A stretch of 64,000 nucleotides of DNA, from sequence record NC_017969.1; one strand, written 5' to 3'. The translations under genes and the position numbers were made by a program. The notes under the pieces were generated by a model. It was not told the origin of the DNA. It did not search any database and worked only from the letters and a program-made list of their open reading frames with translations. Origin of the DNA: Escherichia phage vB_EcoS_AKFV33. Position 1 is the stretch's first letter. Each line of letters opens with the position of its first letter. Of the stretch, positions 26,189 through 54,243 are shown in pieces.

Positions 26189-26536
26189 TTAGTCATAGCA
26201 CCACCATAATCCACGCTTACGCATGTCATGATCGCGATTATAGTCATAATTTTCTGGATCTTTCATCACGCGGTGGAGTTCTTGACGATTCCCTTGACGA
26301 ACCATTTTATTAGAATGCCACTTAACATTCTTACTAATAGAATTCCAGCTATAACCATCCTTTTTCTCATTACGAATGGTTGCTTCCTTCATTTCCTGTT
26401 CTACATCATCCCAGGATTTAGCATAAATAACACGAATCCAGTAGCCATTTTCTTTGAGGAAAGAATATTCTTGAGAGAATTGTTCTTTAGATTTCCACCA
26501 CTGATCACCAGATTGTTTACGATAAGTACGGCTCAT
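26189..26536 (-). CDS. hypothetical protein
   Basis: 115 aa ORF. Confidence 0.45.
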   Translation of the reverse strand: MSRTYRKQSGDQWWKSKEQFSQEYSFLKENGYWIRVIYAKSWDDVEQEMKEATIRNEKKDGYSWNSISKNVKWHSNKMVRQGNRQELHRVMKDPENYDYNRDHDMRKRGLWWCYD

Positions 26537-26657: not shown

Positions 26658-26972
26658 TTACAGATCGGGGCGTTCATCTTCGAAACAGCCTGAGCTGATT
26701 CCTTCTCCGAATCCTACAAAGCCATCAAATTCATCATTTGAGGTGCTCATAATCATTGCTTCCATTTTCCGGATCTCCGAGGTTTTCATGCCTGCTTTAC
26801 TATTCTTATAGTACTTGTGAGGGTTCCCACACATCCAACAAGAACAGATGCAAGGAGTAGTAGTGATGATACCTAACCGCTTAGGGCTTTCTTCATGTGG
26901 AAAGACTGTCCAGTACTTCTTGCGGTTGTTCTTCACACGTTGCCGGTGATGACGTCTTAATGCTCGATCCAC
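26658..26972 (-). CDS. Cys-rich hypothetical protein
   Basis: 104 aa; CICSCWMCGNPH cluster. Confidence 0.45.
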   Translation of the reverse strand: MDRALRRHHRQRVKNNRKKYWTVFPHEESPKRLGIITTTPCICSCWMCGNPHKYYKNSKAGMKTSEIRKMEAMIMSTSNDEFDGFVGFGEGISSGCFEDERPDL

Positions 26973-27053: not shown

Positions 27054-27422
27054 TTACATCGCCTGAGTAAATGTACGACTAATAACGTCGTTCTGTTGTT
27101 CACGAGTCAGTGCATTAAATCGAACAGCGTAGCCAGAGACACGGATGGTCAACTGAGGATATTTTTCAGGATGTTTCTGCGCATCCAAAAGCTGGTCACG
27201 GCTTAATACATTAACATTTAGGTGCTGACCACCTTCGATTTGAGGGGCGATTTCCACTTTGACCTCACGGAAGGCTTCGGGATCGAATTGTGGTGTGATA
27301 CCTTCTAGATCTTCAACTAGAACTTTCTGTTTAAGTTCACCGTTATCGGAGTATAGCTGAATGATCTGATTTTCATGAACGAGGTTGATTACGCCAGATT
27401 TAAGATTTTGATAAGCTTTCAT
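27054..27422 (-). CDS. grcA: autonomous glycyl-radical cofactor protein (GrcA/YfiD-like)
   Basis: 122 aa; C-terminal [31 protein letters not shown] glycyl-radical signature. Confidence 0.7.
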
Positions 27423-27607
27423 TAGATCTCCCTGATGTTAGAATTTGGCTCAGCTTTTTGTTAACCCAGAAGCAAGATAAAAACTGGAAGGCAGGCTGTT
27501 TATTAAGTGAATACCCGATAATCGCTCGTAGTCCGGCTTGTGGATTGATAGTCCCATTCAGCTTAATAAACATAGAGATCAGGCACAAAGGCCTGATATT
27601 TTATTCT

Positions 27608-27839: not shown

Positions 27840-27915
27840 TGGTAATTAGTAGTGGATTTGAACCACTGTAGTCGCTCCGTATGAAGGAGGTGCATAACCA
27901 CTCTGCCAACTAACT
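27840..27915 (-). tRNA. tRNA-Met or Ile2 (anticodon CAT)
   Basis: hand-folded cloverleaf; T-arm AGTGG-TTCAAAT-CCACT; anticodon loop TTCATAC; CCA encoded. Confidence 0.7.
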
Positions 27916-28011
27916 GTTATGTTTTACTAGACTAAGTAAGTATTCTTTATACTCTTTAGACCAATTAGCTTTTTTAAACTTTCCTGGACGCATAGTCTTA
28001 ATTCCTAAATT

Positions 28012-28088
28012 TGGTACTCCGGGAGGGATTTAAACCCCCGATCTCTCGGTTATCAGCCGAGTGCTTTAGATCGCTAAGCTACCGAAGC
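28012..28088 (-). tRNA. tRNA-Ile (anticodon GAT)
   Basis: anticodon stem CTCGG/CCGAG, loop CTGATAA; CCA encoded. Confidence 0.75.
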
Positions 28089-28089
28089 A

Positions 28090-28317
28090 TTAACATTTCA
28101 CAGCAGAACGTTTGCCATTTCTAGGTGCACCTGGAAGTCGTGCACGTTCTGCCATTCTTCGCTTAATCTTTGAGATATTTTCTAGTGTTTGTTCTTCAGG
28201 CTTAATACCTGAAACACTACACCACTGATTACCGTCCCATGCGGTAATGATCATAACACCATTACTCATGATCTTTTCTGTAAAAGTAATCCTCATTATA
28301 GCAACTCGTCTAAGCAA
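28090..28317 (-). CDS. hypothetical protein
   Basis: 75 aa ORF. Confidence 0.4.
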   Translation of the reverse strand: MLRRVAIMRITFTEKIMSNGVMIITAWDGNQWCSVSGIKPEEQTLENISKIKRRMAERARLPGAPRNGKRSAVKC

Positions 28318-28589
28318 GAGGTATATTTAAGTTTACCATCTTTATCTACTTTGATTTCGACTTCCGCCCGTGGTACTTGACGAACTACACCATGAATCAT
28401 CTTATAGCGAATGCCTTTAGCTAATTCATGATCTTTTGGAAAGACTTGCTTAACCGTTACTACCTTGTACCCATCACGCGGTGTTAATACAACTACTTGA
28501 TCACCTTCTTTGATTTTCCAAGAGCCAGGAAATTCGTAAGTATAGCGTTGACCACCAGTTTGGAACACAACAGAAAGATAACGTTTCAT
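28296..28589 (-). CDS. hypothetical protein
   Basis: 97 aa ORF; early promoter upstream. Confidence 0.45.
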   Translation of the reverse strand: MKRYLSVVFQTGGQRYTYEFPGSWKIKEGDQVVVLTPRDGYKVVTVKQVFPKDHELAKGIRYKMIHGVVRQVPRAEVEIKVDKDGKLKYTSCLDELL

Positions 28590-28619
28590 TTGGCTTCCCT
28601 CTCATTAATTTATATAAAT

Positions 28620-28649
28620 ATTATAACAATAAATAAGAGAGAAAGCAAA
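28620..28649 (-). promoter_or_regulatory. sigma70-type early promoter
   Basis: conserved ATTATAACA..AGCAAA (reverse complement TTTGCT-n17-TATAAT). Confidence 0.5.
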
Positions 28650-28663
28650 TGAATTTTTAAATT

Positions 28664-28738
28664 TGGTGCTCCCACCAGGAATCGAACCCGGTTCAGATGC
28701 TTACAAGGCAACTGCATCGCCAACAATGCTTTAGGAGC
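28664..28738 (-). tRNA. tRNA-Thr (anticodon TGT)
   Basis: T-arm with TTCGATT loop; anticodon loop CTTGTAA; CCA encoded. Confidence 0.7.
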
Positions 28739-28747
28739 GATAGCCCG

Positions 28748-28912
28748 TTATTTCAACGGGATTTCTTTTTCAATAACAGGAGACTTATCAGTCATGACTG
28801 TCATTGCCATTTGTTGTAGAAATTCAAAGGTGAAGGCTACACGTTCTTCACCAATCTCTACTTCGACACGTTTCTTTTGTTTATCGATCTTGACTTTTAG
28901 GTTATCAGCCAT
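28748..28912 (-). CDS. small hypothetical protein (54 aa)
   Basis: unlisted ORF MADNLKVKIDKQKK... between tRNAs. Confidence 0.3.
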   Translation of the reverse strand: MADNLKVKIDKQKKRVEVEIGEERVAFTFEFLQQMAMTVMTDKSPVIEKEIPLK

Positions 28913-28928
28913 CTTCGGGTTCTCGTTG

Positions 28929-29126
28929 CTACGCTACTTCTAGCCAGTCTGGTAGAAGAAACTTTGTACGAAATTCTTCGTAAGTTTCTTTGGGATAAAA
29001 GCTAAAACCTCCTTTCTCGTCATTCAGGATAACAGAGCCGTCAGTTTGTTCGTATGCTCGGTATGTTTCTCCAATAACAATAACTCGTTTATCGGTACTT
29101 TTATTACGAAATTCAAAAACGTGCAT
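28929..29126 (-). CDS. hypothetical protein
   Basis: 65 aa ORF. Confidence 0.4.
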   Translation of the reverse strand: MHVFEFRNKSTDKRVIVIGETYRAYEQTDGSVILNDEKGGFSFYPKETYEEFRTKFLLPDWLEVA

Positions 29127-29142
29127 AACATTTCCTTAAAGT

Positions 29143-29218
29143 TGGAGCGGCTAGAGGGAATCGAACCCTACTCGGCGAGGCTTGGAAGGCCTGCGACACA
29201 ACCCGTGTGCTTAACCGC
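29143..29218 (-). tRNA. tRNA-Gly (anticodon TCC)
   Basis: anticodon loop CTTCCAA; T-loop TTCGATT; CCA encoded. Confidence 0.7.
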
Positions 29219-29226
29219 TTATTGTT

Positions 29227-29302
29227 TGGCTGGAGAAGGAGGAATCGAACCTACCATTAACGGAGTCAAAGGCCGTTGTGCTAACCGTTACACTACTCTC
29301 CA
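29227..29302 (-). tRNA. tRNA-Gln (anticodon TTG)
   Basis: anticodon loop CTTTGAC; CCA encoded. Confidence 0.7.
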
Positions 29303-29308
29303 ATTATT

Positions 29309-29384
29309 TGGCTGGAGTGCCTGGGATCGAACCAGGAACCTTCGGAGTCAGAGGCCGACGATCTGCCAATTGATCTACACTCCA
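29309..29384 (-). tRNA. tRNA-Gln (anticodon CTG)
   Basis: tandem paralog of previous; anticodon loop CTCTGAC; CCA encoded. Confidence 0.7.
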
Positions 29385-29396
29385 ATAATTTTTATT

Positions 29397-29591
29397 CTAC
29401 GGAAAAATTGTTGTTGGCTCAGATTCTTCTAAACGTTTGCCTTCATGATCTACTCGAATAACTCCGCATCCTTCGCAAATCACAACTGCACCATAACCTT
29501 CTTTGACCTCAGCTTCTGTAATCAAACCAGAAAGATCACCAGTATCTCTGCCCCACATATCAATGGAGCATTGTTTGCAGAAATCAGCCAT
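29397..29591 (-). CDS. small zinc-ribbon-like protein
   Basis: 64 aa; CKQC...CEGC. Confidence 0.4.
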   Translation of the reverse strand: MADFCKQCSIDMWGRDTGDLSGLITEAEVKEGYGAVVICEGCGVIRVDHEGKRLEESEPTTIFP

Positions 29592-29616
29592 ATTTTATTT
29601 CCTATTTAAGTTAATT

Positions 29617-29693
29617 TGGGGTGGCTAGTGGAATTCGAATCCACATAGGCCTGATTCACAATCAGGATCATTAACCAATTATGATATAGCCAC
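29617..29693 (-). tRNA. tRNA-His (anticodon GTG)
   Basis: anticodon stem CCTGA/TCAGG, loop TTGTGAA; C73 discriminator; no G at position -1 encoded. Confidence 0.75.
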
Positions 29694-29922
29694 AATTGAA
29701 AACTCGCAGGGTTAGCGAAACCTTCCTCAATTAGCATGTTCTAGAATACTAATCAAGTTATCTCCTATTGCACGCAGCTCAAGACGAGTACGAATTTTCA
29801 ATTGTGGCGGCTCTCAGAAACTCTTCTACTCTAGCCTTAGCAGCTTACTCCCGAACGCATGTCGGGGAAGTCTTACTAAGAGCTTCGAATAGCACCGTTA
29901 CACTTTGAGCCATAGATGTATC

Positions 29923-30054
29923 AAGAAGTAGAAGGACTTGAACCTTCACGAGATAGACCATTTATCTCAGCCGCTTTATGAGGTATGTTGCGGGGAGTGG
30001 ATGTTCCCCATAAACCTTTTAGGCAGCCCCGTCTACCAATTCCGGCATACTTCA
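29923..30054 (-). ncRNA. atypical tRNA-like element (T-arm-like hairpin with extra hairpins)
   Basis: T-arm GAAGG-ACTTGAA-CCTTC, 6/7 complementary acceptor-like ends ~130 nt apart; no canonical anticodon loop found. Confidence 0.25.
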
Positions 30055-30059
30055 AGATT

Positions 30060-30154
30060 TGGAGGTAGGTAAGGGGATCGAACCCTTACACCGTATCACT
30101 ACGATCAACCGATTTCAAGTCGGAGTCCAGCGCCAGCCATTGGATTGACCTACC
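30060..30154 (-). tRNA. tRNA-Ser (anticodon TGA), class II
   Basis: long variable arm; anticodon loop CTTGAAA; CCA encoded. Confidence 0.7.
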
Positions 30155-30165
30155 ATTAAGTTATT

Positions 30166-30256
30166 TGGCGGAAGAGGAGAGATTTGAACTCTCAAGCCGT
30201 TTTACCAGTCAGCCACTTTCCAAGTGGTTTTCGTCGCCAATTCGATTTGCTCTTCC
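30166..30256 (-). tRNA. tRNA-Ser (anticodon GGA), class II
   Basis: perfect 7-bp acceptor stem; anticodon loop TTGGAAA; long variable arm. Confidence 0.65.
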
Positions 30257-30292
30257 AATAATAAGATGATGCCTCTATCACACCAGGCAGTT

Positions 30293-30367
30293 ACGCCTCG
30301 CTGGGATTCGAACCCATTAAAACAGCTCAACCGAGATAGTAGGTTTAATTTACTCTGACCATCAAAT
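30293..30367 (-). ncRNA. tRNA-like fragment (T-arm and 3' acceptor half without matching 5' half)
   Basis: TTCGAAT T-loop with flanking stem, but no complementary acceptor 5' strand. Confidence 0.25.
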
Positions 30368-30368
30368 T

Positions 30369-30445
30369 TGGTGCGTGACAAGGGATTCGAACCCTCAAAA
30401 CCCGACTTCTAAGGACGGTATGTATGCCCATTCCATCAATCACGC
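30369..30445 (-). tRNA. tRNA with anticodon TAG (Leu-type anticodon, class-I architecture)
   Basis: anticodon loop CTTAGAA; short variable loop; A73 discriminator; CCA encoded. Confidence 0.6.
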
Positions 30446-30450
30446 GTATT

Positions 30451-30529
30451 TGGTGGAGAATAACGGAATCGAACCGTTCTGATGTCCTCGGTGCAAGCGA
30501 GGTGTCCACTCCATGCAGACCCATTCCCC
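30451..30529 (-). tRNA. tRNA-Ala (anticodon TGC)
   Basis: anticodon stem CCTCG/CGAGG, loop CTTGCAC; G3:U70 identity pair present. Confidence 0.75.
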
Positions 30530-30767
30530 AAATTCTTTAGTTTACTAAGGCTATTAGCTCGGCGTAACTACAGCACCTTCGCTTAGAGCGGAAGGAACTA
30601 CGTCATCTCGCAAACCCAATACACTATTCAGTTGCCGCTGAATCTAGTGGACCAATCTAGAACTTCTCCCGAATCGTAGGGATCGTGCTTTTTGGCAGCC
30701 AGTCCTAGGTCGAGCTAATACCTTAGTGAACTATGATGAGGATTTCTCCTCATCAATTTATATAAAT

Positions 30768-30797
30768 ATTATAACAAGAAATTAAGCATCAAGCAAG
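30768..30797 (-). promoter_or_regulatory. sigma70-type early promoter facing a non-coding island
   Basis: conserved promoter motif; only a 12-codon ORF, then ~200 nt of GC-richer non-coding sequence downstream. Confidence 0.45.
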
Positions 30798-31142
30798 TAC
30801 ATTTTTGCAGACTTCTTGTATTTCCTTAACATCGCTAATGAAAAGGTAATCGGAACTTCCAGAGTGCATACTAGACATTAGTACACCACTATCTGGTGCA
30901 TCTTCTTTTAACGTAATGCCTAACCAGAACTCGGCAAAACTAGGTGTTACCTCACCTTGACTTGCCTTGAATACATCGGCTTCTGTGATCTCCTGACCAG
31001 TAGAAAGTCCCATGTACGGTACGTTCAGATCAATATCTTTGTAGAACTCAGCTAAATCTTGTTCGAAGTCCCAACCTTTAGAGATAGCGAACTCCATTGT
31101 CACATGACCGAAATAACCTTGAATCTTGCTTGATAATTGCAT
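30789..31142 (-). CDS. hypothetical protein
   Basis: track ORF starts at a TTG (31148); first ATG at 31142. Confidence 0.45.
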   Translation of the reverse strand: MQLSSKIQGYFGHVTMEFAISKGWDFEQDLAEFYKDIDLNVPYMGLSTGQEITEADVFKASQGEVTPSFAEFWLGITLKEDAPDSGVLMSSMHSGSSDYLFISDVKEIQEVCKNVLA

Positions 31143-31167
31143 TTGCAATTCCTTATTTTGAGTTAAT

Positions 31168-31241
31168 TGGTACCCGGTGATAGAATCGAACTATCTCAAC
31201 CGCCATGTAAAGACGGGGTTCTCCCATTAAACTAACCGAGC
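31168..31241 (-). tRNA. tRNA-Val (anticodon TAC)
   Basis: anticodon loop TTTACAT; CCA encoded. Confidence 0.65.
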
Positions 31242-31245
31242 AAAT

Positions 31246-31324
31246 TGGTAGATCGCCTGGGACTTGAACCCAGAACCTTCCGATTAAAAGTCGGATGCTA
31301 CTAAACCTATTGAGCTAGCGATCT
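31246..31324 (-). tRNA. tRNA-Lys (anticodon TTT)
   Basis: perfect anticodon stem TCCGA/TCGGA, loop CTTTTAA; CCA encoded. Confidence 0.75.
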
Positions 31325-31513
31325 ATTAGTAACCATTGTATACTTCTTTAATAGAGTGAACTTTCAAGTAAGGGTGATTAGTACTAAACTCTGCCATTAC
31401 TTCATCCCAATTTCTACCATAATGAGCAAGTAAGGATTTTGATGTATTCTTACCTAAGCGTTTGTCACTTACTACTAATCGAAATACTTTCATTTCGAAA
31501 TCCTCTATTAAAA

Positions 31514-31591
31514 TGGAAGCGGGTGCAGGAATCGAACCTACCTCTTTCTAGCTTATGAGACTAGCGATCTCTACCAGAGATCTAACCCGCA
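31514..31591 (-). tRNA. tRNA-Met (anticodon CAT)
   Basis: anticodon loop CTCATAA; position 1:72 mismatch; CCA encoded. Confidence 0.7.
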
Positions 31592-31597
31592 ATTGTT

Positions 31598-31675
31598 TGG
31601 TCTCCGTGGGAGGATTTGAACCCCCGACCCTATCGCCCCAAACGAAACGCTCTGGCCAAACTGAGCTACACGGAG
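31598..31675 (-). tRNA. tRNA-Pro (anticodon TGG)
   Basis: perfect acceptor stem; anticodon loop TTTGGGG; CCA encoded. Confidence 0.75.
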
Positions 31676-31679
31676 AATA

Positions 31680-31838
31680 TTATTTCTTCAACCACAACAA
31701 AGATAAGCCAAGCATACTAAAGCCACTAACTAATCCGATACATTTTTCTTCTATAGTAAAAGTATCTAGATTAAATGCTGTTATAGCTATTGGCATACAC
31801 CATAATGCCATAAAAACTTGAGCTATCTTGTGTTTCAT
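31680..31838 (-). CDS. small membrane protein (52 aa)
   Basis: unlisted ORF MKHKIAQVFMALWCMPIAITAF... directly downstream of early promoter. Confidence 0.3.
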   Translation of the reverse strand: MKHKIAQVFMALWCMPIAITAFNLDTFTIEEKCIGLVSGFSMLGLSLLWLKK

Positions 31839-31870
31839 TTTGCTTTCCTTCTCTTCACTTTATAAAATAT

Positions 31871-31900
31871 ATTATACAGATAGTTAAGCAGAATAGCAAA
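31871..31900 (-). promoter_or_regulatory. sigma70-type early promoter
   Basis: ATTATACAG..AGCAAATGAATTTTT motif. Confidence 0.5.
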
Positions 31901-32048
31901 TGAATTTTTAATAAATTTACTTATTGTGTAGGCCACCTGGAGGCTACCAACCCCACGGCTGACAAAGAAGTTTGCGAGACCTCTCTTAAATGCCAGAATA
32001 GACCCGCCGATCTATCGGAACCTACATAATAAGTAAACTTTATAGTGT

Positions 32049-32169
32049 CATTCTAGACAGGACTCGAACCTGTTATCACTTGTGCGGACTTACGAGAACC
32101 ATTCTTTCACTCGAATCGAACGAGCTTCTGCCCTCGCCAAGCTGGTTTCCCCACCAACCACGCTAGAAT
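32049..32169 (-). ncRNA. long tRNA-like RNA (~121 nt): perfect 7-bp acceptor-like stem, D-arm, T-arm and an extra internal TTCGATT hairpin
   Basis: ATTCTAG/CTAGAAT ends, T-arm ACAGG-TTCGAGT-CCTGT; no canonical anticodon loop. Confidence 0.35.
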
Positions 32170-32291
32170 GTTTGATTGTTTTCAGTGCAAGAGTCCGAGT
32201 CTTGGACACGACCGCTTTGCAAGTACATAGGCAGCTTATCATGAGTCAGCACTTCCGAATTGCTAGCTCCGTGTTCTGCACTGAAATTTTA

Positions 32292-32639
32292 TTAGTTTAA
32301 CCTTAAAGTATTATCTACTTCACCATTAATTGTTCGGCATTCCTCTGGAATTGCTGGAGTAGCCTTGTATTCCCACCACTCAGCTCCATCATATTCCCCA
32401 CGTTCTAGCCAGGTTCCATCGGCAAACCATACATTACCATAAAGTAGTTGTCCACCATAACCAGAATCATACTCAAAGTCTAGGTTATTAAGAAAATCCC
32501 CAATATCTTCTTCTGTATACCCCAGAGGTAATACCCAAACTTTTTTGTCCCCATAATACCCGAATTCTATTTTAATACACTTAACTTCAGAATTAGTATT
32601 TTTTAAGGCAAGTAACAACTCTTCTTTAGCATTACGCAT
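32292..32639 (-). CDS. hypothetical protein
   Basis: 115 aa ORF. Confidence 0.45.
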   Translation of the reverse strand: MRNAKEELLLALKNTNSEVKCIKIEFGYYGDKKVWVLPLGYTEEDIGDFLNNLDFEYDSGYGGQLLYGNVWFADGTWLERGEYDGAEWWEYKATPAIPEECRTINGEVDNTLRLN

Positions 32640-32665
32640 AGTATATTTCTCGTGCTAGTTTAGTT

Positions 32666-32741
32666 TGGTACACCCACTAGGACTTGAACCTAGAACCCTC
32701 CGCTTAAGAGGCGGTAGCTCTAACCATTGAGCTATGGATGT
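32666..32741 (-). tRNA. tRNA-Lys (anticodon CTT)
   Basis: anticodon loop CTCTTAA; CCA encoded. Confidence 0.65.
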
Positions 32742-32918
32742 ATTAAATTACTTTTTCCAGTTCATCAGCTATGGCTTTGATTTTTTCAAAGTTTACATCA
32801 CTAATAATGATACCTTCTAGTGACAGAGATATTCTAGCATTTTTCGTAGCAGATTCTTTTATCTGCTCTATCTCTTCTGGAGTAAACTCTCTACGTTCCA
32901 TAGCTAACCTACCTTATT

Positions 32919-32995
32919 TGGCGCGACCGATGGGATTTGAACCCACATTCCCTCCCGTGACAGGGGAGTACCATTACCAAGCCAGCCCCGGTCGC
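32919..32995 (-). tRNA. tRNA-Asp (anticodon GTC)
   Basis: perfect acceptor and anticodon stems; loop CTGTCAC; position cross-checked against ORF-track frame. Confidence 0.8.
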
Positions 32996-33004
32996 ATAAT
33001 TCAT

Positions 33005-33190
33005 TTACTCAGCTTTGAGTTTTTCAATAGCTGCATTAAGTTCTTTAAGAAACTCTTTTCGTACATTAAGACGGTTGAGACTTACTAGTATATCATGTTT
33101 AAGTTCTTCGATGTATTTCTTCTCAACTTCAATATTGTTGATAGTGCTATCACGATGAACTTCTAGCTGCGCAATTACATTCTTGGACAT
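33005..33190 (-). CDS. hypothetical coiled-coil protein
   Basis: 61 aa ORF. Confidence 0.4.
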   Translation of the reverse strand: MSKNVIAQLEVHRDSTINNIEVEKKYIEELKHDILVSLNRLNVRKEFLKELNAAIEKLKAE

Positions 33191-33292
33191 GCTTGTTTCC
33201 TCAGTTATTAATGAAAATGGTATCTGTGGCTGAATTCGATGTCAGCAATGATAGCTGGTTGGCTACCGGTTTACTTAACTCTACACAGAATT

Positions 33293-33375
33293 TGGCGGGC
33301 CGTGTAGGATTCGAACCTACGTTGTCTTTCGACATGGATTAACAGTCCACCGCCAAACCGCTTGGCTAACGACCC
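33293..33375 (-). tRNA. tRNA-Asn (anticodon GTT) with extended variable region
   Basis: D-stem GCCA/TGGC, anticodon loop CTGTTAA; 83 nt. Confidence 0.6.
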
Positions 33376-33381
33376 TGAATT

Positions 33382-33456
33382 TGGAGCACCCTGCTGGAAT
33401 TGAACCAACCTAGACGATTTTGCAGACCGTCACCTAAGCCACTCGGACAAGGATGC
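33382..33456 (-). tRNA. tRNA-Cys (anticodon GCA)
   Basis: anticodon loop CTGCAAA; CCA encoded. Confidence 0.65.
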
Positions 33457-33458
33457 AA

Positions 33459-33647
33459 TTATTCTTTATCTTCCGGCCATGAAAAGTGGATTAGATTTGC
33501 TGGCCCAAGAGTCCTGCAATAATATCCATCACCATGATCATAACCACATGTTCCACATTCACACATCTTAAATTCACCAAACTTAGTGAATAAGATTTCT
33601 GTGTCACAACAGTCGAACTTAACTAATTTAGCTTTTGGCTTCTTCAT
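33459..33647 (-). CDS. Cys-rich small protein
   Basis: 62 aa; CCDTE..CECGTCGYDHGDGYYC. Confidence 0.4.
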   Translation of the reverse strand: MKKPKAKLVKFDCCDTEILFTKFGEFKMCECGTCGYDHGDGYYCRTLGPANLIHFSWPEDKE

Positions 33648-33886
33648 TTAACACGCTCCGGTAGATCTTCGAGGTTATATTCCGTTGCTACACCAGCAGC
33701 ATCTAATAGTAAACCCATATGTTTAAGGATTTTAGTGATAGATTCACCTTCTGCTTCTTCTACAAAAGAACGTAGATGAACAAAGTCAATACCCCCATCC
33801 ATACCAGAGAAAATGTTTAGTAAGCGGAGCATTACCAGCTTACGTTCATTCAATTCTTGTTCTGTCATGTTGCTTCTCCAGTTCAA
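33644..33886 (-). CDS. hypothetical protein
   Basis: 80 aa ORF; early promoter upstream. Confidence 0.4.
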   Translation of the reverse strand: MNWRSNMTEQELNERKLVMLRLLNIFSGMDGGIDFVHLRSFVEEAEGESITKILKHMGLLLDAAGVATEYNLEDLPERVK

Positions 33887-33918
33887 TTTATGTAATTATT
33901 ATACAGAACTTTTGGAAA

Positions 33919-34206
33919 CTAAGCAACTACATTTTTTAAGAATTTGATACCTTTCTTTTTCTTCTTATATTTCCACGTTAATGGATTCTGTCGATTGTGA
34001 ACGCTTGAGATCTTTGTCTCGTCAAAGTTCTTCAATATCATGTAATCACAGGATAATTGTTCTAATGGAATGTGATTACCGTCAAAAGCATATACATAAG
34101 GCTGTTGACTAGCACGATAATGATAGACTTTGTTAATTCTACGTTTCAGCGACTTATCCGCGCAGTAAATAAAGAAGTTTTCAGGATGCATCAGCAGCTC
34201 CTTCAA
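33919..34206 (-). CDS. hypothetical protein
   Basis: 95 aa ORF (TTG start in track). Confidence 0.4.
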   Translation of the reverse strand: MKELLMHPENFFIYCADKSLKRRINKVYHYRASQQPYVYAFDGNHIPLEQLSCDYMILKNFDETKISSVHNRQNPLTWKYKKKKKGIKFLKNVVA

Positions 34207-34208
34207 TT

Positions 34209-34284
34209 TGGTGCACCCTGTTCGTATCGAACGAACCTCTCAAGCTCTTCAGGCAAGCGCTAATCCATCTCAGCTAAAGGTGCA
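34209..34284 (-). tRNA. tRNA-Phe (anticodon GAA), tentative
   Basis: anticodon loop CTGAAGA with weak stem; T-stem GTTCG/CGAAC. Confidence 0.5.
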
Positions 34285-34289
34285 AATTT

Positions 34290-34366
34290 TGGCAAACCTA
34301 CTAGGACTCGAACCTAGACCGTACGGTTTTGGAGACCGACATGCTGTCCAGTAACACTCTAGGAAT
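34290..34366 (-). tRNA. tRNA-Trp (anticodon CCA)
   Basis: anticodon loop CTCCAAA; two mismatches in acceptor stem. Confidence 0.7.
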
Positions 34367-34374
34367 GCAGAAAT

Positions 34375-34451
34375 TGGCGTCCTGTGCGGGGATCGAACCC
34401 GCAAATCCTACCTTGAAAGGGTAGTGACTTTACCAGTTTGTCTAACAGGGC
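34375..34451 (-). tRNA. tRNA-Glu (anticodon TTC)
   Basis: perfect anticodon stem CTACC/GGTAG, loop CTTTCAA. Confidence 0.75.
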
Positions 34452-34458
34452 TTAAATT

Positions 34459-34549
34459 TGGTGTTGGATGATGGAGTCGAACCACCCGAGACCCTTCCGA
34501 GTCGGCAGATTTACAGTCTGCTTCGCTACCTCTACGATACTAATCCAAC
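34459..34549 (-). tRNA. tRNA-Tyr (anticodon GTA), class II
   Basis: perfect acceptor and anticodon stems (GCAGA/TCTGC), loop CTGTAAA, long variable arm. Confidence 0.8.
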
Positions 34550-34677
34550 ATATTTAAAAATACTAAAATACTAGTTTAAACACTTTTAAATATGTTTCCA
34601 AATTAGATAACTATTATACCAAGTTTTAAGGCACTGAGCAAGTCAAATTTTAAAGAACTTGCTCAGTGCTGTATTAG

Positions 34678-34953
34678 TTAGTCGAACTTAGGAGTGACAG
34701 CTAAGGAGAATGGAAGTTCGAAAACTTCTTCACCCTCATCACTAACAGTAATTACACGGCCTTTAAGTTCAGACATTGAAATATCAATATCAGCTTTTGC
34801 ATCTGGAGCCATTCCAGCTTCAACACATTTAGCTTTAACTTCCGGCAGAAGTTCTACATCGTAGAAATAAAGCCATTCAATCTCACCTTCCCAGCCTTCC
34901 CAGGATTTACAGATTGCACTTTCAATACCAGTTGCTATAACACGATTTTGCAT
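34678..34953 (-). CDS. hypothetical protein
   Basis: 91 aa ORF. Confidence 0.45.
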   Translation of the reverse strand: MQNRVIATGIESAICKSWEGWEGEIEWLYFYDVELLPEVKAKCVEAGMAPDAKADIDISMSELKGRVITVSDEGEEVFELPFSLAVTPKFD

Positions 34954-35043
34954 TAGTTAACTCCTTCATCAATTTATATAACTATTATATCAGAAATTTA
35001 AAGCAAAAGGCAAGTACATTTTTAAAAATTCTATTTGGAGGAG

Positions 35044-35250
35044 CTAAACTCCAGATTCTTCAGCCAAGTCTAGACTAATAAGAGATATAGCCATAATTGC
35101 TGCTGTGTGCTCTTTTTCTCCAGTCTCTTTAGCTAGAGTTATAATATCAAGAATTTGCTTATGAAAGTCTGCAACCTCTTGAGTCATACCTGCTTCAGCA
35201 ATCATGCCTTTAAGCATGAAACGTTGTGCGGTAATTTCAGGATTAGCCAT
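35044..35250 (-). CDS. hypothetical protein
   Basis: 68 aa ORF. Confidence 0.4.
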   Translation of the reverse strand: MANPEITAQRFMLKGMIAEAGMTQEVADFHKQILDIITLAKETGEKEHTAAIMAISLISLDLAEESGV

Positions 35251-35425
35251 GTTGTTTCTCCAGTTTCATCTTTAATAGTCTACAAATAAAATCAATGTCT
35301 TCATCCGTGCCTAAATCTCTATCTTCAAGAGTTGCCTTGAAGTTTTTAGTCAATTCCATGAGGATAACTTCTCTAGAACGACGTGTTGGCGGAGGTGGAG
35401 GTCTATACATCTTATTTCCTTAATT

Positions 35426-35502
35426 TGGTAGGGGTGGTGGGATTCGAACCCACAAAACCTGAATTTTAAGTCCAGTACCTATGCCAATTCGATTACACCC
35501 CC
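35426..35502 (-). tRNA. tRNA with anticodon TAA (Leu-type anticodon, class-I architecture)
   Basis: anticodon stem CTGGA/TTCAG, loop CTTAAAA; A73; CCA encoded. Confidence 0.6.
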
Positions 35503-35603
35503 GTGTAATCAGTTTATTAGTTGATACATATTATAGCCTAGTGAAAATCCTACTACTAGTCCCACAAACCAACCAATATAATAATCTTTTAGTTTCACAG
35601 ATA

Positions 35604-35789
35604 TTACCCTCTTTCAATATCTAGAGAAATACCACAGTTAGGATTAATACCTGTACCATTGCAATTTGGGCAAACCCAGATATTGCAAAAAGTATCTCCT
35701 GCTTCTGCATCAGAACTTTCACCAATTCCCCTACACTCAGGGCAGGCACATTCTTCTAGCTCTTGCTTGAGTTCTTGAAACTTGGACAT
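35604..35789 (-). CDS. DnaJ-type zinc-finger small protein
   Basis: 61 aa; CPECRGIG and CPNCNGTG repeats. Confidence 0.45.
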   Translation of the reverse strand: MSKFQELKQELEECACPECRGIGESSDAEAGDTFCNIWVCPNCNGTGINPNCGISLDIERG

Positions 35790-35798
35790 ATAGTCTCC

Positions 35799-35987
35799 TT
35801 AGTCAATTACTTTTGAGGCCTCAAGGTAGTCGATATAGTGTACGTTTTCTACCGTAATCATATAATCTGCCACTTTATCCATAGCTTGGGCTTCAGAGGT
35901 AGCTCTGGCTAACCTATATCCTTTTTTATATTCATCAGGGTATTCTCTATCTTGAATAAACACAACATAAACTATGTATAATTCCAC
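35799..35987 (-). CDS. small hypothetical protein
   Basis: track ORF 35799-36134 reads through a tRNA gene; trimmed to GTG with SD AGGGGA. Confidence 0.35.
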   Translation of the reverse strand: MELYIVYVVFIQDREYPDEYKKGYRLARATSEAQAMDKVADYMITVENVHYIDYLEASKVID

Positions 35988-36007
35988 TTGTAATCCCCTA
36001 ATTAAGT

Positions 36008-36085
36008 TGGTGGCTCCCCGAGGATTCGAACCTACGTACCTTCCAGTTATGAGCTGGGTGCTCATACCATATGAGCTTGAGAACC
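36008..36085 (-). tRNA. tRNA-Met or Ile2 (anticodon CAT)
   Basis: D-stem GCTC/GAGC, anticodon loop CTCATAA; position cross-checked against ORF-track frame. Confidence 0.65.
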
Positions 36086-36091
36086 AGAATT

Positions 36092-36180
36092 TGGCGGAAG
36101 AAGTGGGAATCGAACCCACAAGGCTATATTTCAAACCGACAGATTAGCAATCTGCTGCAATACCGTTATGCTATTCTTCC
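36092..36180 (-). tRNA. tRNA-Ser (anticodon GCT), class II
   Basis: perfect 7-bp acceptor stem; anticodon loop TTGCTAA; long variable arm. Confidence 0.75.
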
Positions 36181-36201
36181 GAATTTATAAGATATATTAT
36201 A

Positions 36202-36720
36202 TTAGAAATTTAGCTTCATAGCAAGAAAATTTTTCAAGTTTTCGGTAGACATCTCATCCACATCTACAGGAGAAACAAAGCCGTTTAATTTTCTAGCAAA
36301 TTTTTCACCCGCAGGATCGTTATTCCCGACAGCTACCAATTTAAAAGGTAATAATTTCAGTTGCTTTAATAACGCTTTTCCTGGAGAAGAACCCAACATT
36401 GCTAGGGCTGGATAACCAGCGTTATGTAACGCAACTGCCTTAAATACAGATTCAGCGATCAATACTACTTTTTCATCTCCATTGAGAGTTTCTAATCCCC
36501 ATACACACTGGGTAGTAGAATAGGTAAAATATTTAGCTTCAAAGGGACACTTACCATGACCTTTTGGAGCAGAAGGATTATAAGTTTGATAGCCTCTCAA
36601 CATCCCAGAGAAATCATACAACGGGACTGTTAGCCATCCTTCCGGACTTAACCAGCAATGATATTTATCTGCATCAAATCCTCTAGATAGAAGATGTTGT
36701 GTTAATTCATCAACACCCAT
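36202..36720 (-). CDS. small TOPRIM-like domain protein
   Basis: 172 aa; VVLIAESVFKA..YPALAMLGSS..LVAVGNNDPAGEKFARKL resembles the TOPRIM acidic motif arrangement; call is low-certainty. Confidence 0.5.
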   Translation of the reverse strand: MGVDELTQHLLSRGFDADKYHCWLSPEGWLTVPLYDFSGMLRGYQTYNPSAPKGHGKCPFEAKYFTYSTTQCVWGLETLNGDEKVVLIAESVFKAVALHNAGYPALAMLGSSPGKALLKQLKLLPFKLVAVGNNDPAGEKFARKLNGFVSPVDVDEMSTENLKNFLAMKLNF

Positions 36721-36816
36721 GTTTAATCTCCTAGTTAGTTTTATAATTACATTATATAGAAAAGCCCTGCGCTCTCCAGGAAACGCAGGGCTTACTTTAG
36801 ATGTTACATGCGGGTA

Positions 36817-37764: not shown

Positions 37765-37798
37765 ATATTTCCTTTGTTTTAGTTACAGTTAATAAAAT

Positions 37799-37873
37799 TG
37801 GCCGAGGTGACAGGATTCGAACCTGCATAAAGGAATTTAGAAGACTCCTGCCTCTCCCTTAGACTACACCCCG
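37799..37873 (-). tRNA. tRNA-Arg (anticodon TCT)
   Basis: anticodon loop CTTCTAA; CCA encoded. Confidence 0.7.
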
Positions 37874-51734: not shown

Positions 51735-52403
51735 ATGCCAAAGAAATTGAGTACGGAAGAAGTCAATAATAGACTTTTAGATAGAGGAATTGTCTTAGTT
51801 GGGGAGTATATAAATGCTAATACTAAGGCTAGTTTTAGATGTTCAGTGGGGCATGTATGGGAAACAAAACCATCAGTGTTACTTAACATGGGATTTGGAT
51901 GTCCATATTGCAGTGGGAAAGCTAAACTAACTCCTGAAGTAATAAACCAGGAATTAAGTAATAAAGGAATACAAATAGTAGGCAAATATGTAAATAATAG
52001 AACTCCGACCCTTTTTAGGTGTGAAAATGGCCATGAGTGGAATACTACTATTAATGCAGTGAAAAATTTAGACAGTAATTGCCCGATATGTAAAAAAGAA
52101 GGCAGGTCTAAAACAAAACTATATGTTATGTATAGTGAATCTTTAGGTACTAAGATTGGTATCTCTAATAAACCGGGAACTAGATTAGGAAAAATTAGCA
52201 GAAATGCTAATATACCAGATCTTAAATTATTTAAAGTATTTGATATCTTAGATTATACTAAGTGCCGTAAAATTGAGAAAGCAGCACATGAGCATTTTAA
52301 AGAATGGAACTGCTATTATAAGGATTTTGATGGTGCTACAGAGTTTTTTGATATTGAACCAGATACAGCAGTAAAATTTATTGAGGAAAATATTAATGAC
52401 TGA
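51735..52403 (+). CDS. T5orf172-domain protein (GIY-YIG-like superfamily) with N-terminal zinc-ribbon repeats; homing-endonuclease-like
   Basis: 222 aa; repeated FRCSVGHVW..CPYC and FRCENGHEW..CPIC units; call from domain recollection. Confidence 0.55.
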   Translation: MPKKLSTEEVNNRLLDRGIVLVGEYINANTKASFRCSVGHVWETKPSVLLNMGFGCPYCSGKAKLTPEVINQELSNKGIQIVGKYVNNRTPTLFRCENGHEWNTTINAVKNLDSNCPICKKEGRSKTKLYVMYSESLGTKIGISNKPGTRLGKISRNANIPDLKLFKVFDILDYTKCRKIEKAAHEHFKEWNCYYKDFDGATEFFDIEPDTAVKFIEENIND

Positions 52404-54243
52404 AGCTGAATTATTCGATAATATCTATGGTATTACAGATGGCTTTGCAGACTCTACCCTAAAGCATAATAATGCTAATAAACCCTCTGAGCGTTTTCCT
52501 ACTCAGCGGGATATGATTGCAGGTGAACTAAGTAAATTTTTAACCTTGCAAGAAATGCCCGTACAGATCAGGACAGCACACTCAATCGGAGATATTCATT
52601 TCCATGACTTGGATTATTCCCTTTTGGGCATGACTAACTGTTGTCTAGTAGCTCTGGAAGATATGCTAAAAAATGGTATGAAGGTTGGTAATGCTGAAAT
52701 TAGCACTCCAAACTCTATCACTACTGCGGCGGCTATTACTGCTCAGATTATCACTCAGGTTAGCTCCCATCAGTATGGTGGTACTTCTGTAGATCGCCTT
52801 GATGAAGTATTAGCCCCTTATGTTCGTAAATCCTATGACAAAAATCATGCGTTTGCAAAACGTTGGACTAAGGATGAAGCCAAAGCATCAGTAATGGCTA
52901 CGGAGATGACTGAAAAAGAAGTCTATGACGCTTGTCAGGGTTTAGAATATGAAATCAATACCATGTTCAACTCTAATGGTCAGAGTCCATTTATTACCTT
53001 TGGTTTTGGTCTAGGAACTTCCTGGGAAGCACGTCTAGTACAGAAAGCAGTACTGAAAGTACGCATGGATGGTTTAGGTATCAATAAACGTACAGCTATC
53101 TTCCCGAAACTGGTATTTGTACTTCGCGATGGCGTAAATATGAAACCAGGAGATGTTAATTATGACATCAAGAAGTTAGCTATGAAATGTACTGCTGAAC
53201 GTATGTATCCAGATTATATCAGCTATGACAAGGTTGTAGAAGTTACTGGAGACTATAAAGTTTCTATGGGCTGCCGTTCATTCCTAGCTGCTGCAGAAGA
53301 TGGTGAAACTGCTGGCCGTAATAACTTAGGTGTTGTTTCTGTAAACTTGCCTAGAATTGCTATCGAAGCTGAAGGAAATATTGATCTATTCTTTGATTTG
53401 CTTGAGCTACGTGTGGATACAGCGTTAAAAGCATTGGAGTGGAGAGTTGATCGCTTAAAATACATCCAAGCTAAAGCTGCACCCATCCTCTATATGTCAG
53501 GAGCCTTTGGGTTACGCTTGGAGCCTGATGAATATGTATTCGATCATTTCTATAACCGTGCTTCTGTATCTCTAGGGTATATTGGTTGCCATGAAATGCT
53601 ACAGTTCATGTTCGGCAAAGATGTAGACACAATGTCAGAGACCTGCATCAAGTTTGTTCAGCGTGTATTGCAGTACATGCGAGATAGAGTCGATCAGAAG
53701 AAGGAAGAGACTAAGTTAGGTTATAGCCTGTATGCTACACCGTCAGAGTCCCTATGTGATAGGTTTTGCCGTTTAGACCGTGAATATTTCCCAGAGCATG
53801 AAGATATTCTGTCTAAAGGATACTACACTAACTCGCACCACCTTGATGTAGAGCGTAAAGTTGCTCCTAACGTGAAATTTGATTATGAATCTAACTTTAC
53901 GCCTATTGCTTCTGGTGGGTGCATTTCCTATGTAGAACTACCGGATATGAAACGATTCCCAGATGCACTGGAATGGGTTATTAATTATGCTGCTAGTAAG
54001 GTTCATTACTTCGGTATTAATACCCCAGTGGATTCTTGTGGTAAATGTGGATTCTTAGGTGAAACAATAGCATCCGAAGATGGATTCAAGTGCCCTATCT
54101 GTGGTAATCATGACCCCGAAACTCTTGAAGTAACTCGTCGAGTTTGTGGGTATCTTGGAAATCCAGGTGCTCGTCCGTTTAACCCAGGAAAACAACATGA
54201 GGTTATGGGCAGGGTGAAACATCAGGATATTCGAGCTAAGTAA
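52396..54243 (+). CDS. nrdD: anaerobic ribonucleoside-triphosphate reductase (class III)
   Basis: C-terminal glycyl-radical motif RVCGYLG and Cys-rich zinc site; ATG at 52396 with SD GAGG (track starts at a TTG). Confidence 0.85.
   Translation: MTEAELFDNIYGITDGFADSTLKHNNANKPSERFPTQRDMIAGELSKFLTLQEMPVQIRTAHSIGDIHFHDLDYSLLGMTNCCLVALEDMLKNGMKVGNAEISTPNSITTAAAITAQIITQVSSHQYGGTSVDRLDEVLAPYVRKSYDKNHAFAKRWTKDEAKASVMATEMTEKEVYDACQGLEYEINTMFNSNGQSPFITFGFGLGTSWEARLVQKAVLKVRMDGLGINKRTAIFPKLVFVLRDGVNMKPGDVNYDIKKLAMKCTAERMYPDYISYDKVVEVTGDYKVSMGCRSFLAAAEDGETAGRNNLGVVSVNLPRIAIEAEGNIDLFFDLLELRVDTALKALEWRVDRLKYIQAKAAPILYMSGAFGLRLEPDEYVFDHFYNRASVSLGYIGCHEMLQFMFGKDVDTMSETCIKFVQRVLQYMRDRVDQKKEETKLGYSLYATPSESLCDRFCRLDREYFPEHEDILSKGYYTNSHHLDVERKVAPNVKFDYESNFTPIASGGCISYVELPDMKRFPDALEWVINYAASKVHYFGINTPVDSCGKCGFLGETIASEDGFKCPICGNHDPETLEVTRRVCGYLGNPGARPFNPGKQHEVMGRVKHQDIRAK

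What the first reader, a model, noticed from the sequence alone, without database searches (positions are those of the whole stretch)
27054..27422. GrcA/YfiD-like glycyl-radical spare-part protein; nrdD present without a recognisable nrdG
The 122-aa ORF ends with the glycyl-radical signature (..[10 protein letters not shown]..) of GrcA/PFL C-termini. The phage also encodes class III reductase NrdD (52396-54243), but no radical-SAM activase (CxxxCxxC) ORF was seen in the window. The phage may rely on host activases and supply a glycyl-radical domain to rescue oxygen-damaged PFL or modulate anaerobic metabolism.
Basis: partly seen in the sequence, partly recalled or inferred. Interest (0 to 1): 0.5.

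Follow-up and report, generated by a model that had tools for sequence, protein, structure and literature searches.

The report
Phage copy of GrcA spare-part protein
This T5-like phage carries a small, well-conserved copy of the bacterial "spare part" protein that repairs oxygen-damaged pyruvate formate-lyase, plus an anaerobic ribonucleotide reductase without its own activating enzyme; both facts are real but already known from T4 biochemistry, existing GenBank annotation and a 2013 survey.

Summary
A 122-aa ORF at 27054-27422 (minus strand) has a C-terminal PFL-type glycyl-radical domain containing the exact PFL-AE substrate heptamer RVSGYAV. It is 80% identical to E. coli PflB 700-760 and 73% identical to GrcA. 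NrdD (52381/52396-54243) is also real. No radical-SAM activase is present in the window or in the remaining ~58 kb of a close relative.

The window is the left 64 kb of a Tequintavirus (T5-like phage). The gene is full-length phrog_1209, the same family as T4 Vs.6/Y06I. Y06I was shown in 2001 to be activated by host PFL-AE and to restore oxygen-cleaved PFL. Near-identical GenBank copies are already annotated "autonomous glycyl radical cofactor" or "pyruvate formate-lyase". nrdD-only phages were reported by Dwivedi et al. 2013.

Both halves of the gene are under purifying selection (dN/dS 0.11 and 0.017).

The most likely mechanism is that host PflA activates the phage protein, which then rescues host PFL after T5 shuts off host gene expression. 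Host NrdG would activate the phage NrdD. One untested extension is that rescued PFL supplies the formate that this NrdD, which has the E. coli-type catalytic residues, uses as reductant.

Verdict: correct, ordinary and already known. Interest is low.

The parts
27054..27422 (-). GrcA/YfiD-like autonomous glycyl-radical 'spare part' gene (122 aa plus stop); phage family phrog_1209, which also contains T4 Vs.6/Y06I
   Evidence: ORF. Pfam Gly_radical 66.5 bits. NCBIfam GrcA 120.6 bits. phrog_1209 full length, 162 bits. 98-99% identical copies in T5-like phages are annotated GrcA or pyruvate formate-lyase. Intact in 30 of 30 T5-like loci; dN/dS 0.069.
27057..27239 (-). Codons 62-122: the PFL-type glycyl-radical domain (helix, beta-hairpin with Gly97 at the tip, helix)
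   Evidence: 80% identical to E. coli PflB 700-760 and 73% to GrcA 54-127. AF2 secondary structure H75-83, E91-95, E98-101, H107-117. Foldseek top hits are 6OWR YfiD and PFL 2PFL/1CM5/1MZO. dN/dS 0.017.
27123..27143 (-). Codons 94-100, RVSGYAV: the radical-bearing loop (Gly97), identical to the minimal PFL-AE substrate peptide
   Evidence: Sequence read (reverse complement CGT GTC TCT GGC TAC GCT GTT). The peptide RVSGYAV is a competent PFL-AE substrate (PDB 3CB8), per PMC10665898.
27240..27422 (-). Codons 1-61: divergent N-terminal half, phage-type (starts MKAYQ as in T4 Vs.6). In E. coli YfiD the corresponding half mediates binding to cleaved PFL.
   Evidence: Alignments A1/A2 show Q5, R52 and P60 near-invariant across phage and bacterial GrcAs. 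No significant pairwise BLAST hit when searched alone. dN/dS 0.11. AF2 predicts a 4-strand beta meander with pLDDT about 81. Role of the YfiD N-terminus: PMC8683613.
27429..27433 (-). Shine-Dalgarno-like GGGAG, 6 nt upstream of the ATG
   Evidence: Read directly from the sequence (GGGAGATCTAATG on the minus strand).
27435..27464 (-). Weak sigma-70-like promoter match (TTAACA-18-TAACAT) just upstream of the gene; low confidence
   Evidence: 9 of 12 matches; the number of such sites in the region is no higher than in shuffles.
27578..27597 (-). Terminator-like hairpin between the upstream 64-aa ORF and the GrcA-like gene; low confidence
52381..54243 (+). nrdD, class III (anaerobic) ribonucleotide reductase without an ATP-cone and with no nrdG next to it. 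The ATG at 52396 is the alternative start.
   Evidence: Pfam NRDD 572 bits plus Gly_radical 80.8 bits. 54% identical to E. coli NrdD. Keeps C87, M296, C298 and G590 (E. coli C175, M382, C384, G681) and 4 Zn-ribbon Cys. The downstream ORF 54344-54724 has no Pfam hit and no Cys motif.

Best explanation
The ORF is a phage-resident member of the GrcA/YfiD 'spare part' family and the T5-lineage counterpart of T4 Vs.6/Y06I.

Proposed mechanism for the small protein:
(1) It is expressed from the early region, at the 3' end of the tRNA cluster.
(2) Its C-terminal domain, which copies the last ~60 residues of pyruvate formate-lyase including RVSGYAV, is a substrate for the host radical-SAM activase PflA (PFL-AE), which installs a radical on Gly97.
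(3) The protein docks onto host PFL that oxygen has cleaved at Gly734, or onto radical-less PFL, and replaces the lost C-terminal radical domain. This restores pyruvate to acetyl-CoA plus formate under micro-oxic conditions.

Why a phage copy is useful: T5-type phages destroy host DNA and shut off host expression (established T5 biology, from my own knowledge), so the host's stress-inducible grcA can no longer be made.

Proposed mechanism for NrdD: it has no phage activase and is most likely activated by pre-existing host NrdG.

Shown here: sequence and fold membership, the exact activase-recognition peptide, purifying selection, and absence of any activase gene. Inferred: activation by host PflA and NrdG, and PFL rescue in vivo.
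For: Family membership: Pfam, NCBIfam and PHROG hits; PDB sequence hits to YfiD 6OWR and PFL; fold match to YfiD and the PFL C-terminus.

PFL-type domain: 33-34 of 41 identities around the radical Gly with PflB/GrcA, against 7 of 41 with NrdD.

Activase recognition: the exact RVSGYAV heptamer is a competent PFL-AE substrate (PMC10665898).

Precedent: full-length homology (about 53%) to T4 Vs.6, including the shared MKAYQ start. Y06I was experimentally shown to be activated by PFL-AE and to restore cleaved PFL (PMC8683613 citing Wagner 2001).

Maintenance: intact in 30 of 30 T5-like loci, with dN/dS 0.11 (N-half) and 0.017 (C-half). About 434 phage records carry a copy at 80% identity or more.

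No activase: plus the annotation of the relative's remaining genome.

NrdD region: from the Zn-ribbon to the Gly loop it is 58% identical to E. coli's, against 48% for T4 NrdD, which carries its own NrdG.
Against: No experiment exists for the T5-lineage protein. No paper in the searchable library discusses it.

The score is below the NCBIfam GrcA equivalog cutoff (120.6 against 170 bits), because the N-terminal half is divergent. In E. coli YfiD that half is needed for binding cleaved PFL, so target recognition could differ.

AF2 predicts the N-half as folded, whereas YfiD's is disordered.

The 58% against 48% difference in NrdD is modest and does not prove that host NrdG cross-activates it.

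Only one relative's remaining genome was searched for an activase; the unseen remainder of this phage's own genome cannot be checked.
Confidence: 0.78

Rival explanations
1. The small protein is a spare part or accessory for the phage's own (or the host's) class III reductase NrdD, replacing its oxygen-cleaved glycyl-radical tail.
For: Both genes occur in the same phage, and both carry Pfam Gly_radical matches. An early T4-like genome paper speculated that vs.6 might act in nucleotide metabolism (PMC1524935).
Against: Around the radical Gly only 7 of 41 residues match either NrdD, against 33-34 of 41 for PflB/GrcA. No BLAST alignment to NrdD is better than E=2.8. The motif is RVSGYAV (PFL type), not RRVCGYLG (NrdD type). 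There is no Zn-ribbon. T4 Y06I restores PFL.
Confidence: 0.02
2. The protein is a decoy or modulator rather than a repair part. It soaks up host PFL-AE activity, or occupies PFL, to re-route host fermentation (for example by limiting or re-timing formate and acetyl-CoA production), and its divergent N-terminal half gives it a different binding behaviour.
For: The N-terminal half differs from host GrcA (no significant BLAST hit), scores below the equivalog cutoff and is predicted folded. In YfiD this half controls PFL binding.
Against: The catalytic-domain residues are almost invariant (dN/dS 0.017), down to the parts that sit in the PFL active site. That is more than a pure activase decoy would need. 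T4 Y06I also has a phage-type N-half yet restores PFL activity.
Confidence: 0.08
3. It is a non-functional relic: a captured 3' fragment of host pflB or grcA carried passively.
For: The C-terminal module is very similar to the host genes. T4 vs.6 shows evidence of very recent exchange with host grcA.
Against: The gene has its own ATG and SD. It is intact in 30 of 30 loci, with strong purifying selection on both halves despite dS of about 0.38. Third-codon-position identity to host genes is only 48-57%, so the residency is old. It is conserved across T5-like, T4-like and roughly 350-kb jumbo phages.
Confidence: 0.01

Closest known systems
Bacteriophage T4 Vs.6 / Y06I (autonomous glycyl radical cofactor; Wagner et al. 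2001)
   Same: Small stand-alone phage protein (120 against 122 aa). Aligns over its full length at about 53% identity. Same MKAYQ start and same PFL-type glycyl-radical domain with RVSGYAV. Same PHROG family (phrog_1209). Encoded by a virulent enterobacterial phage that also carries nrdD.
   Different: T4's C-terminal module is 98% nucleotide-identical to E. coli grcA, indicating recent exchange. The T5-like module is old (72-77% nt) and slightly closer to PflB, ending ..TFTQAM against PflB ..TFTQSM. T4 encodes its own NrdG; this phage lineage does not.
E. coli GrcA (YfiD), PDB 6OWR; NCBIfam TIGR04365 / InterPro IPR011140
   Same: Size, two-part architecture, and a C-terminal domain 73% identical over 74 residues. 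Best PDB sequence hit and best fold hit.
   Different: The N-terminal ~55 residues are not significantly similar pairwise and are only alignable in a multiple alignment. The score is below the equivalog cutoff. The N-half is predicted to be beta-structured, while YfiD 1-60 is disordered by NMR (PMC8683613).
C-terminal glycyl-radical domain of pyruvate formate-lyase PflB (residues ~700-760)
   Same: 80% identity over 61 residues, and the identical segment [19 protein letters not shown] around the radical Gly. Model rmsd 2.6 A over about 51 residues to 2PFL.
   Different: It lacks the ~700-residue catalytic barrel and the Cys418/Cys419 site, so it cannot be a formate-lyase on its own. The GenBank labels 'pyruvate formate-lyase' and 'formate acetyltransferase' on its orthologs are over-annotations.
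nrdD-only phages (class Ia nrdAB plus nrdD without nrdG), Dwivedi et al. 2013
   Same: The same gene complement, with phoH between class I and class III genes as described for T5, SPC35 and EPS7.
   Different: Nothing material; this window is another example.

Membership tests
GrcA/YfiD autonomous glycyl radical cofactor (TIGR04365, IPR011140) | Small (about 120-130 aa) stand-alone protein, not the tail of a large glycyl-radical enzyme | tested here: met
   122-aa ORF with its own ATG, SD and stop, flanked by unrelated small ORFs.
GrcA/YfiD autonomous glycyl radical cofactor (TIGR04365, IPR011140) | C-terminal PFL-type glycyl-radical domain with the RVSGYAV loop | tested here: met
   Pfam PF01228 66.5 bits (cutoff 22.2). 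Exact heptamer at residues 94-100. 33-34 of 41 identities to PflB/GrcA around the Gly.
GrcA/YfiD autonomous glycyl radical cofactor (TIGR04365, IPR011140) | Whole-protein score above the curated equivalog cutoff | tested here: not met
   120.6 bits against a cutoff of 170; only residues 51-122 align to the model. GrcA2 and GrcA3 are also below their cutoffs.
GrcA/YfiD autonomous glycyl radical cofactor (TIGR04365, IPR011140) | N-terminal half homologous to that of GrcA | tested here: inconclusive
   No significant pairwise hit. However, multiple alignments of 17 and 64 sequences give near-invariant Q5 and R52 (P60 in the 17-sequence one), and Vibrio GrcAs align over 86% of the length.
GrcA/YfiD autonomous glycyl radical cofactor (TIGR04365, IPR011140) | Fold of the structured domain matches YfiD and the PFL C-terminus | tested here: met
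   AF2 model with mean pLDDT 72.7. Foldseek: 6OWR E=6e-6, TM(target) 0.75; 2PFL, 1CM5 and 1MZO rmsd 2.6 A.
GrcA/YfiD autonomous glycyl radical cofactor (TIGR04365, IPR011140) | Glycyl radical installed by PFL-AE, and activity restored to O2-cleaved PFL | not testable with these tools
   Biochemical property. Shown only for E. coli YfiD and T4 Y06I (PMC8683613).
Phage Vs.6/Y06I family (phrog_1209) | Full-length match to the phage family profile | tested here: met
   phrog_1209 E=1.2e-47, residues 1-122 on profile positions 1-121 of 121. tblastn to T4 covers 100% at 52.7% identity.
Class III ribonucleotide reductase NrdD, E. coli/T4 formate-using type | NRDD domain; thiyl-loop Cys, the Met-x-Cys pair, C-terminal RVCGY glycine, Zn-ribbon | tested here: met
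   Pfam 572 bits. C87, M296, C298, G590 and 4 Zn Cys align with E. coli C175, M382, C384, G681, C644/647/662/665. Reading the Met as a marker of formate use rests on my knowledge of Wei et al. 2014; formate use by characterised NrdDs is per PMC4493059.
Class III ribonucleotide reductase system (NrdD plus NrdG) | A cognate radical-SAM activase NrdG encoded with nrdD | tested here: not met
   No tblastn hit better than E=2 in the window or the relative's remaining genome. No coding-frame CxxxCxxC other than an unrelated 104-aa ORF. None annotated.
Glycyl-radical activating enzymes (radical SAM: PflA/NrdG), considered for ORF 26658-26972 | CxxxCxxC cluster motif within a radical-SAM fold of about 150-250 aa | tested here: not met
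   The motif CICSCWMC is present, but the protein is only 104 aa, has no Pfam hit even at E<=10, has no similarity to NrdG or PflA, and belongs to phrog_4499 of unknown function.

The most novel reading that the evidence does not exclude
The spare part and NrdD form one functional module that runs entirely on host activases. By keeping host PFL alive after host shut-off, the phage protein would secure formate, which is the reductant of E. coli-type NrdD. The phage's own class III reductase could then keep making dNTPs in micro-oxic or anaerobic gut conditions. This would explain why GrcA-like genes turn up in several unrelated nrdD-carrying phage lineages: T5-like, T4-like and roughly 350-kb jumbo phages. 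The folded, phage-specific N-terminal half might additionally retarget or accelerate docking compared with host GrcA.
Probability: 0.3. Interest if true: 0.45.

Novelty: already known. Interest (0 to 1): 0.15.

Why it matters
It matters mainly for annotation hygiene and for phage physiology in the gut. Orthologs are labelled inconsistently: pyruvate formate-lyase, 2-ketobutyrate formate-lyase, acetyltransferase, ribonucleotide reductase subunit, hypothetical protein, and 'unknown function' in PHROGs. The correct label is autonomous glycyl radical cofactor (Vs.6/Y06I family). Biologically, it shows that T5-like phages, which are widely used as therapeutic and biocontrol candidates against Salmonella and E. 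coli, invest in anaerobic or micro-oxic metabolism (a PFL rescue part plus class III RNR). They would depend on host PflA and NrdG for it. That dependence predicts oxygen-dependent and host-genotype-dependent differences in burst size, which are easy to test.

Tried and rejected
(1) A large protein-database search with the N-terminal 61 residues alone gave only 3 candidates, all short fragments, and was uninformative.

(2) I considered the adjacent Cys-rich ORF 26658-26972 as a cryptic activase and rejected it. It is too short, has no Pfam or radical-SAM similarity, and is syntenic only within T5-like phages; it is absent next to T4, Phi1 and other GrcA-like genes.

(3) I considered the 126-aa ORF directly downstream of nrdD, in the position nrdG occupies in E. 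coli. It has no Pfam hit, no Cys motif, and belongs to phrog_11748 of unknown function.

(4) I tried to find a Demerecviridae member with nrdG through Aeromonas phage PhAER-4. Its record has no taxonomy, so this was inconclusive.

(5) Literature searches for T5 plus nrdG/nrdD and for T5-like plus formate-lyase returned nothing. Wei 2014 (PMC4246965) and Vey 2008 (PMC2571006) are not held, so the Met382 interpretation rests on my own knowledge, and the RVSGYAV point is cited from PMC10665898 instead.

(6) Promoter and terminator scans around the gene are no better than shuffled sequence, so I make no claim about the transcription unit.

(7) The NrdD-spare-part and pseudogene rivals were tested and rejected.

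Full report
WHAT IS THERE

It runs 27054..27422 on the minus strand, has an ATG start and encodes 122 aa. GGGAG lies 6 nt upstream of the ATG. [10 protein letters not shown] is residues 94-103, and the radical glycine would be Gly97.

The matches are far beyond chance:
- Pfam Gly_radical: 66.5 bits, E=3.5e-18.
- NCBIfam GrcA TIGR04365: 120.6 bits, E=4.8e-35.
- PDB 6OWR (E. coli YfiD): E=1.9e-30. PFL structures: E about 5e-27. All other glycyl-radical enzymes score 50 bits or less.

NrdD is also real: Pfam NRDD 572 bits, 52381 (TTG) or 52396 (ATG) to 54243.

CONTEXT

The window is the left ~64 kb of a T5-like phage (Demerecviridae, Tequintavirus). The closest relatives are about 95-96% identical. 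The A1 DNA-transfer gene is at the left end. The GrcA-like gene sits at the 3' end of a 23-gene tRNA cluster on the minus strand.

Close relatives already annotate this gene as 'grcA, autonomous glycyl radical cofactor', or less accurately as 'pyruvate formate-lyase', 'acetyltransferase-related' or 'ribonucleotide reductase subunit'.

THE ACTIVASE QUESTION

- Across all six frames (stop-to-stop segments of 40 aa or more), the only CxxxCxxC in the window lies in a 104-aa ORF immediately downstream (26658-26972). That ORF has no Pfam hit even at E<=10 and belongs to phrog_4499 of unknown function.
- tblastn with E. coli NrdG, T4 NrdG and E. coli PflA found nothing better than E=2, either in the window or in positions 60,000-118,118 of the close relative NBEco002.
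- That relative's remaining genome is replication, recombination and structural genes with no annotated activase. Its only CxxxCxxC is in a non-coding frame.
- NrdG homologs are easy to detect where they exist: 2,273 phage records match, including T4.
- Dwivedi et al. [quoted passage not shown] They describe the phoH gene between the RNR genes of T5, SPC35 and EPS7 (PMC3653736), and that arrangement is also seen here.

WHAT THE PROTEIN IS

The C-terminal 61 residues are 80% identical to E. coli PflB 700-760 and 73% identical (over 74 residues) to GrcA. In a 41-residue window centred on the radical Gly, 33-34 positions match PflB/GrcA and only 7 match either NrdD. It is therefore a PFL-type part, not an NrdD-type part.

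The heptamer RVSGYAV is present exactly. That peptide alone is a competent substrate of PFL-AE and was co-crystallised with it (PDB 3CB8; PMC10665898).

The whole protein matches phrog_1209 end to end. It aligns over its full length at about 53% identity with T4 Vs.6, sharing the MKAYQ start.

In multiple alignments of 17 and 64 sequences the N-terminal halves of phage and bacterial GrcAs are alignable, with near-invariant Q5 and R52 (and P60 in the 17-sequence alignment). Pairwise, the N-half is not significantly similar to E. coli GrcA. This is why the protein scores below the NCBIfam equivalog cutoff.

An AlphaFold2 model (mean pLDDT 72.7) reproduces the helix, beta-hairpin with Gly97, helix pattern of the radical domain. 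Foldseek ranks YfiD (6OWR) and E. coli PFL first. The model predicts a four-stranded beta meander for residues 1-40 at pLDDT about 81. YfiD residues 1-60 are disordered in solution yet needed for binding cleaved PFL (PMC8683613).

IS IT MAINTAINED?

Thirty T5-like copies (28 distinct DNA sequences) are all intact. Pooled Nei-Gojobori dN/dS values are:
- N-half: 0.11.
- C-half: 0.017.
- Overall dS: about 0.38.

Third-codon-position identity to host grcA and pflB is only 48-57%, so this is an old phage gene, not a fresh capture. Related proteins occur in about 1,580 phage records: T5-like, T4-like, roughly 350-kb jumbo phages and a Vibrio phage. A different Demerecviridae genus (Priunavirus PSTCR5) carries the same module on a 173-aa protein.

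MECHANISM

The best-supported reading is the established one. Knappe's group showed that E. coli YfiD and T4 Y06I are activated by PFL-AE and restore activity to oxygen-cleaved PFL. These remain the only two validated spare parts (PMC8683613; the GRE review PMC13450708).

By homology, the T5-lineage protein would be radical-activated by host PflA and would replace the lost C-terminal domain of host PFL. A phage copy makes sense because T5-type infection shuts off host expression (established T5 biology, from my own knowledge), which would block induction of host grcA.

The phage NrdD lacks an ATP-cone but keeps Cys87, Met296, Cys298, Gly590 and the Zn-ribbon. Its region from the Zn-ribbon to the Gly loop is somewhat more E. 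coli-like than T4's (58% against 48% identity). This is consistent with activation by host NrdG but does not prove it.

Formate is the reductant of the characterised E. coli-type NrdDs (PMC4493059 citing Mulliez 1995), and PFL is the source of formate. A functional coupling of spare part, PFL, formate and NrdD is therefore plausible. It is an inference I could not test.

RIVALS

- Spare part for NrdD: rejected on sequence.
- Decaying fragment of a captured host gene: rejected by selection and conservation.
- Decoy or modulator role exploiting the divergent N-half: cannot be excluded, but it is disfavoured by the near-invariance of the catalytic-site-facing domain and by the T4 precedent.

NOVELTY

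Already known. The gene is annotated as GrcA in near-identical GenBank genomes. Its T4 homolog was characterised biochemically in 2001. vs.6 conservation and its Gly_radical match were noted in 2006 (PMC1524935). nrdD-only phages were described in 2013. I found no paper specifically on the T5-lineage protein, so direct experiments would be new but confirmatory.

Interest is low.

Noticed in passing
window 26658-26972 (-): A 104-aa ORF with a basic N-terminus and a CxCxCxxC cluster (CICSCWMCGNPHKYY). It has no Pfam hit even at E<=10 and belongs to phrog_4499 of unknown function. It always lies 85 nt downstream of the GrcA-like gene in 29 of 29 T5-like loci, but is absent next to GrcA-like genes of T4, Phi1 and other lineages. 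It is probably a small metal-binding protein; its function is unknown.
   Followed up: partly
L009 5551-5910 (-) (T4 vs.6) against L007 3067-3450 (E. coli grcA): The last 61 codons of T4 vs.6 are 98% identical at the nucleotide level to E. coli K-12 grcA (97% at third positions), while the N-terminal half is phage-type. This looks like a very recent recombination or gene conversion between T4 and its host's grcA.
   Followed up: partly
window 27240-27422 (-), residues 1-61: AlphaFold2 predicts the N-terminal 40 residues as a four-stranded beta meander (pLDDT about 81), with no significant PDB fold match. The corresponding half of E. coli YfiD is disordered by NMR. This could be a fold adopted only on binding, or a real difference of the phage lineage.
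   Followed up: partly
window 51735-52403 (+): A 222-aa ORF with DUF4379 treble-clef zinc-finger, CapR and T5orf172/MUG113 domains (homing-endonuclease-like). It abuts and overlaps the start of nrdD by 8-23 nt. nrdD is a frequent target of mobile endonucleases and introns in T4-like phages.
   Followed up: no
window 52381-54243 (+): The phage NrdD lacks the ~90-residue N-terminal ATP-cone of E. coli NrdD, as does T4 NrdD, so it presumably lacks overall dATP/ATP activity regulation.
   Followed up: partly
window 55086-55904 (+): A 272-aa SIR2-family (sirtuin-like) ORF (Pfam 87 bits) lies about 840 nt downstream of the end of nrdD.
   Followed up: no
window 27840-37873 (-): A cluster of 23 tRNA genes, all on the minus strand, interspersed with small ORFs. 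The GrcA-like gene lies at its downstream end.
   Followed up: no
L044 1168-1689 (+) (Providencia phage PSTCR5, Priunavirus): A 173-aa protein carries the same PFL-type glycyl-radical module behind a longer N-terminal region that looks unrelated by eye (not tested). This suggests N-terminal modules are swapped among Demerecviridae spare-part proteins.
   Followed up: no
window 26189-26536 (-): A 115-aa ORF matching Pfam DUF7295 over its full length (183 bits). It is conserved two genes downstream of the GrcA-like gene in T5-like loci, and some relatives have a 53-59% identical variant of about 136 aa.
   Followed up: no
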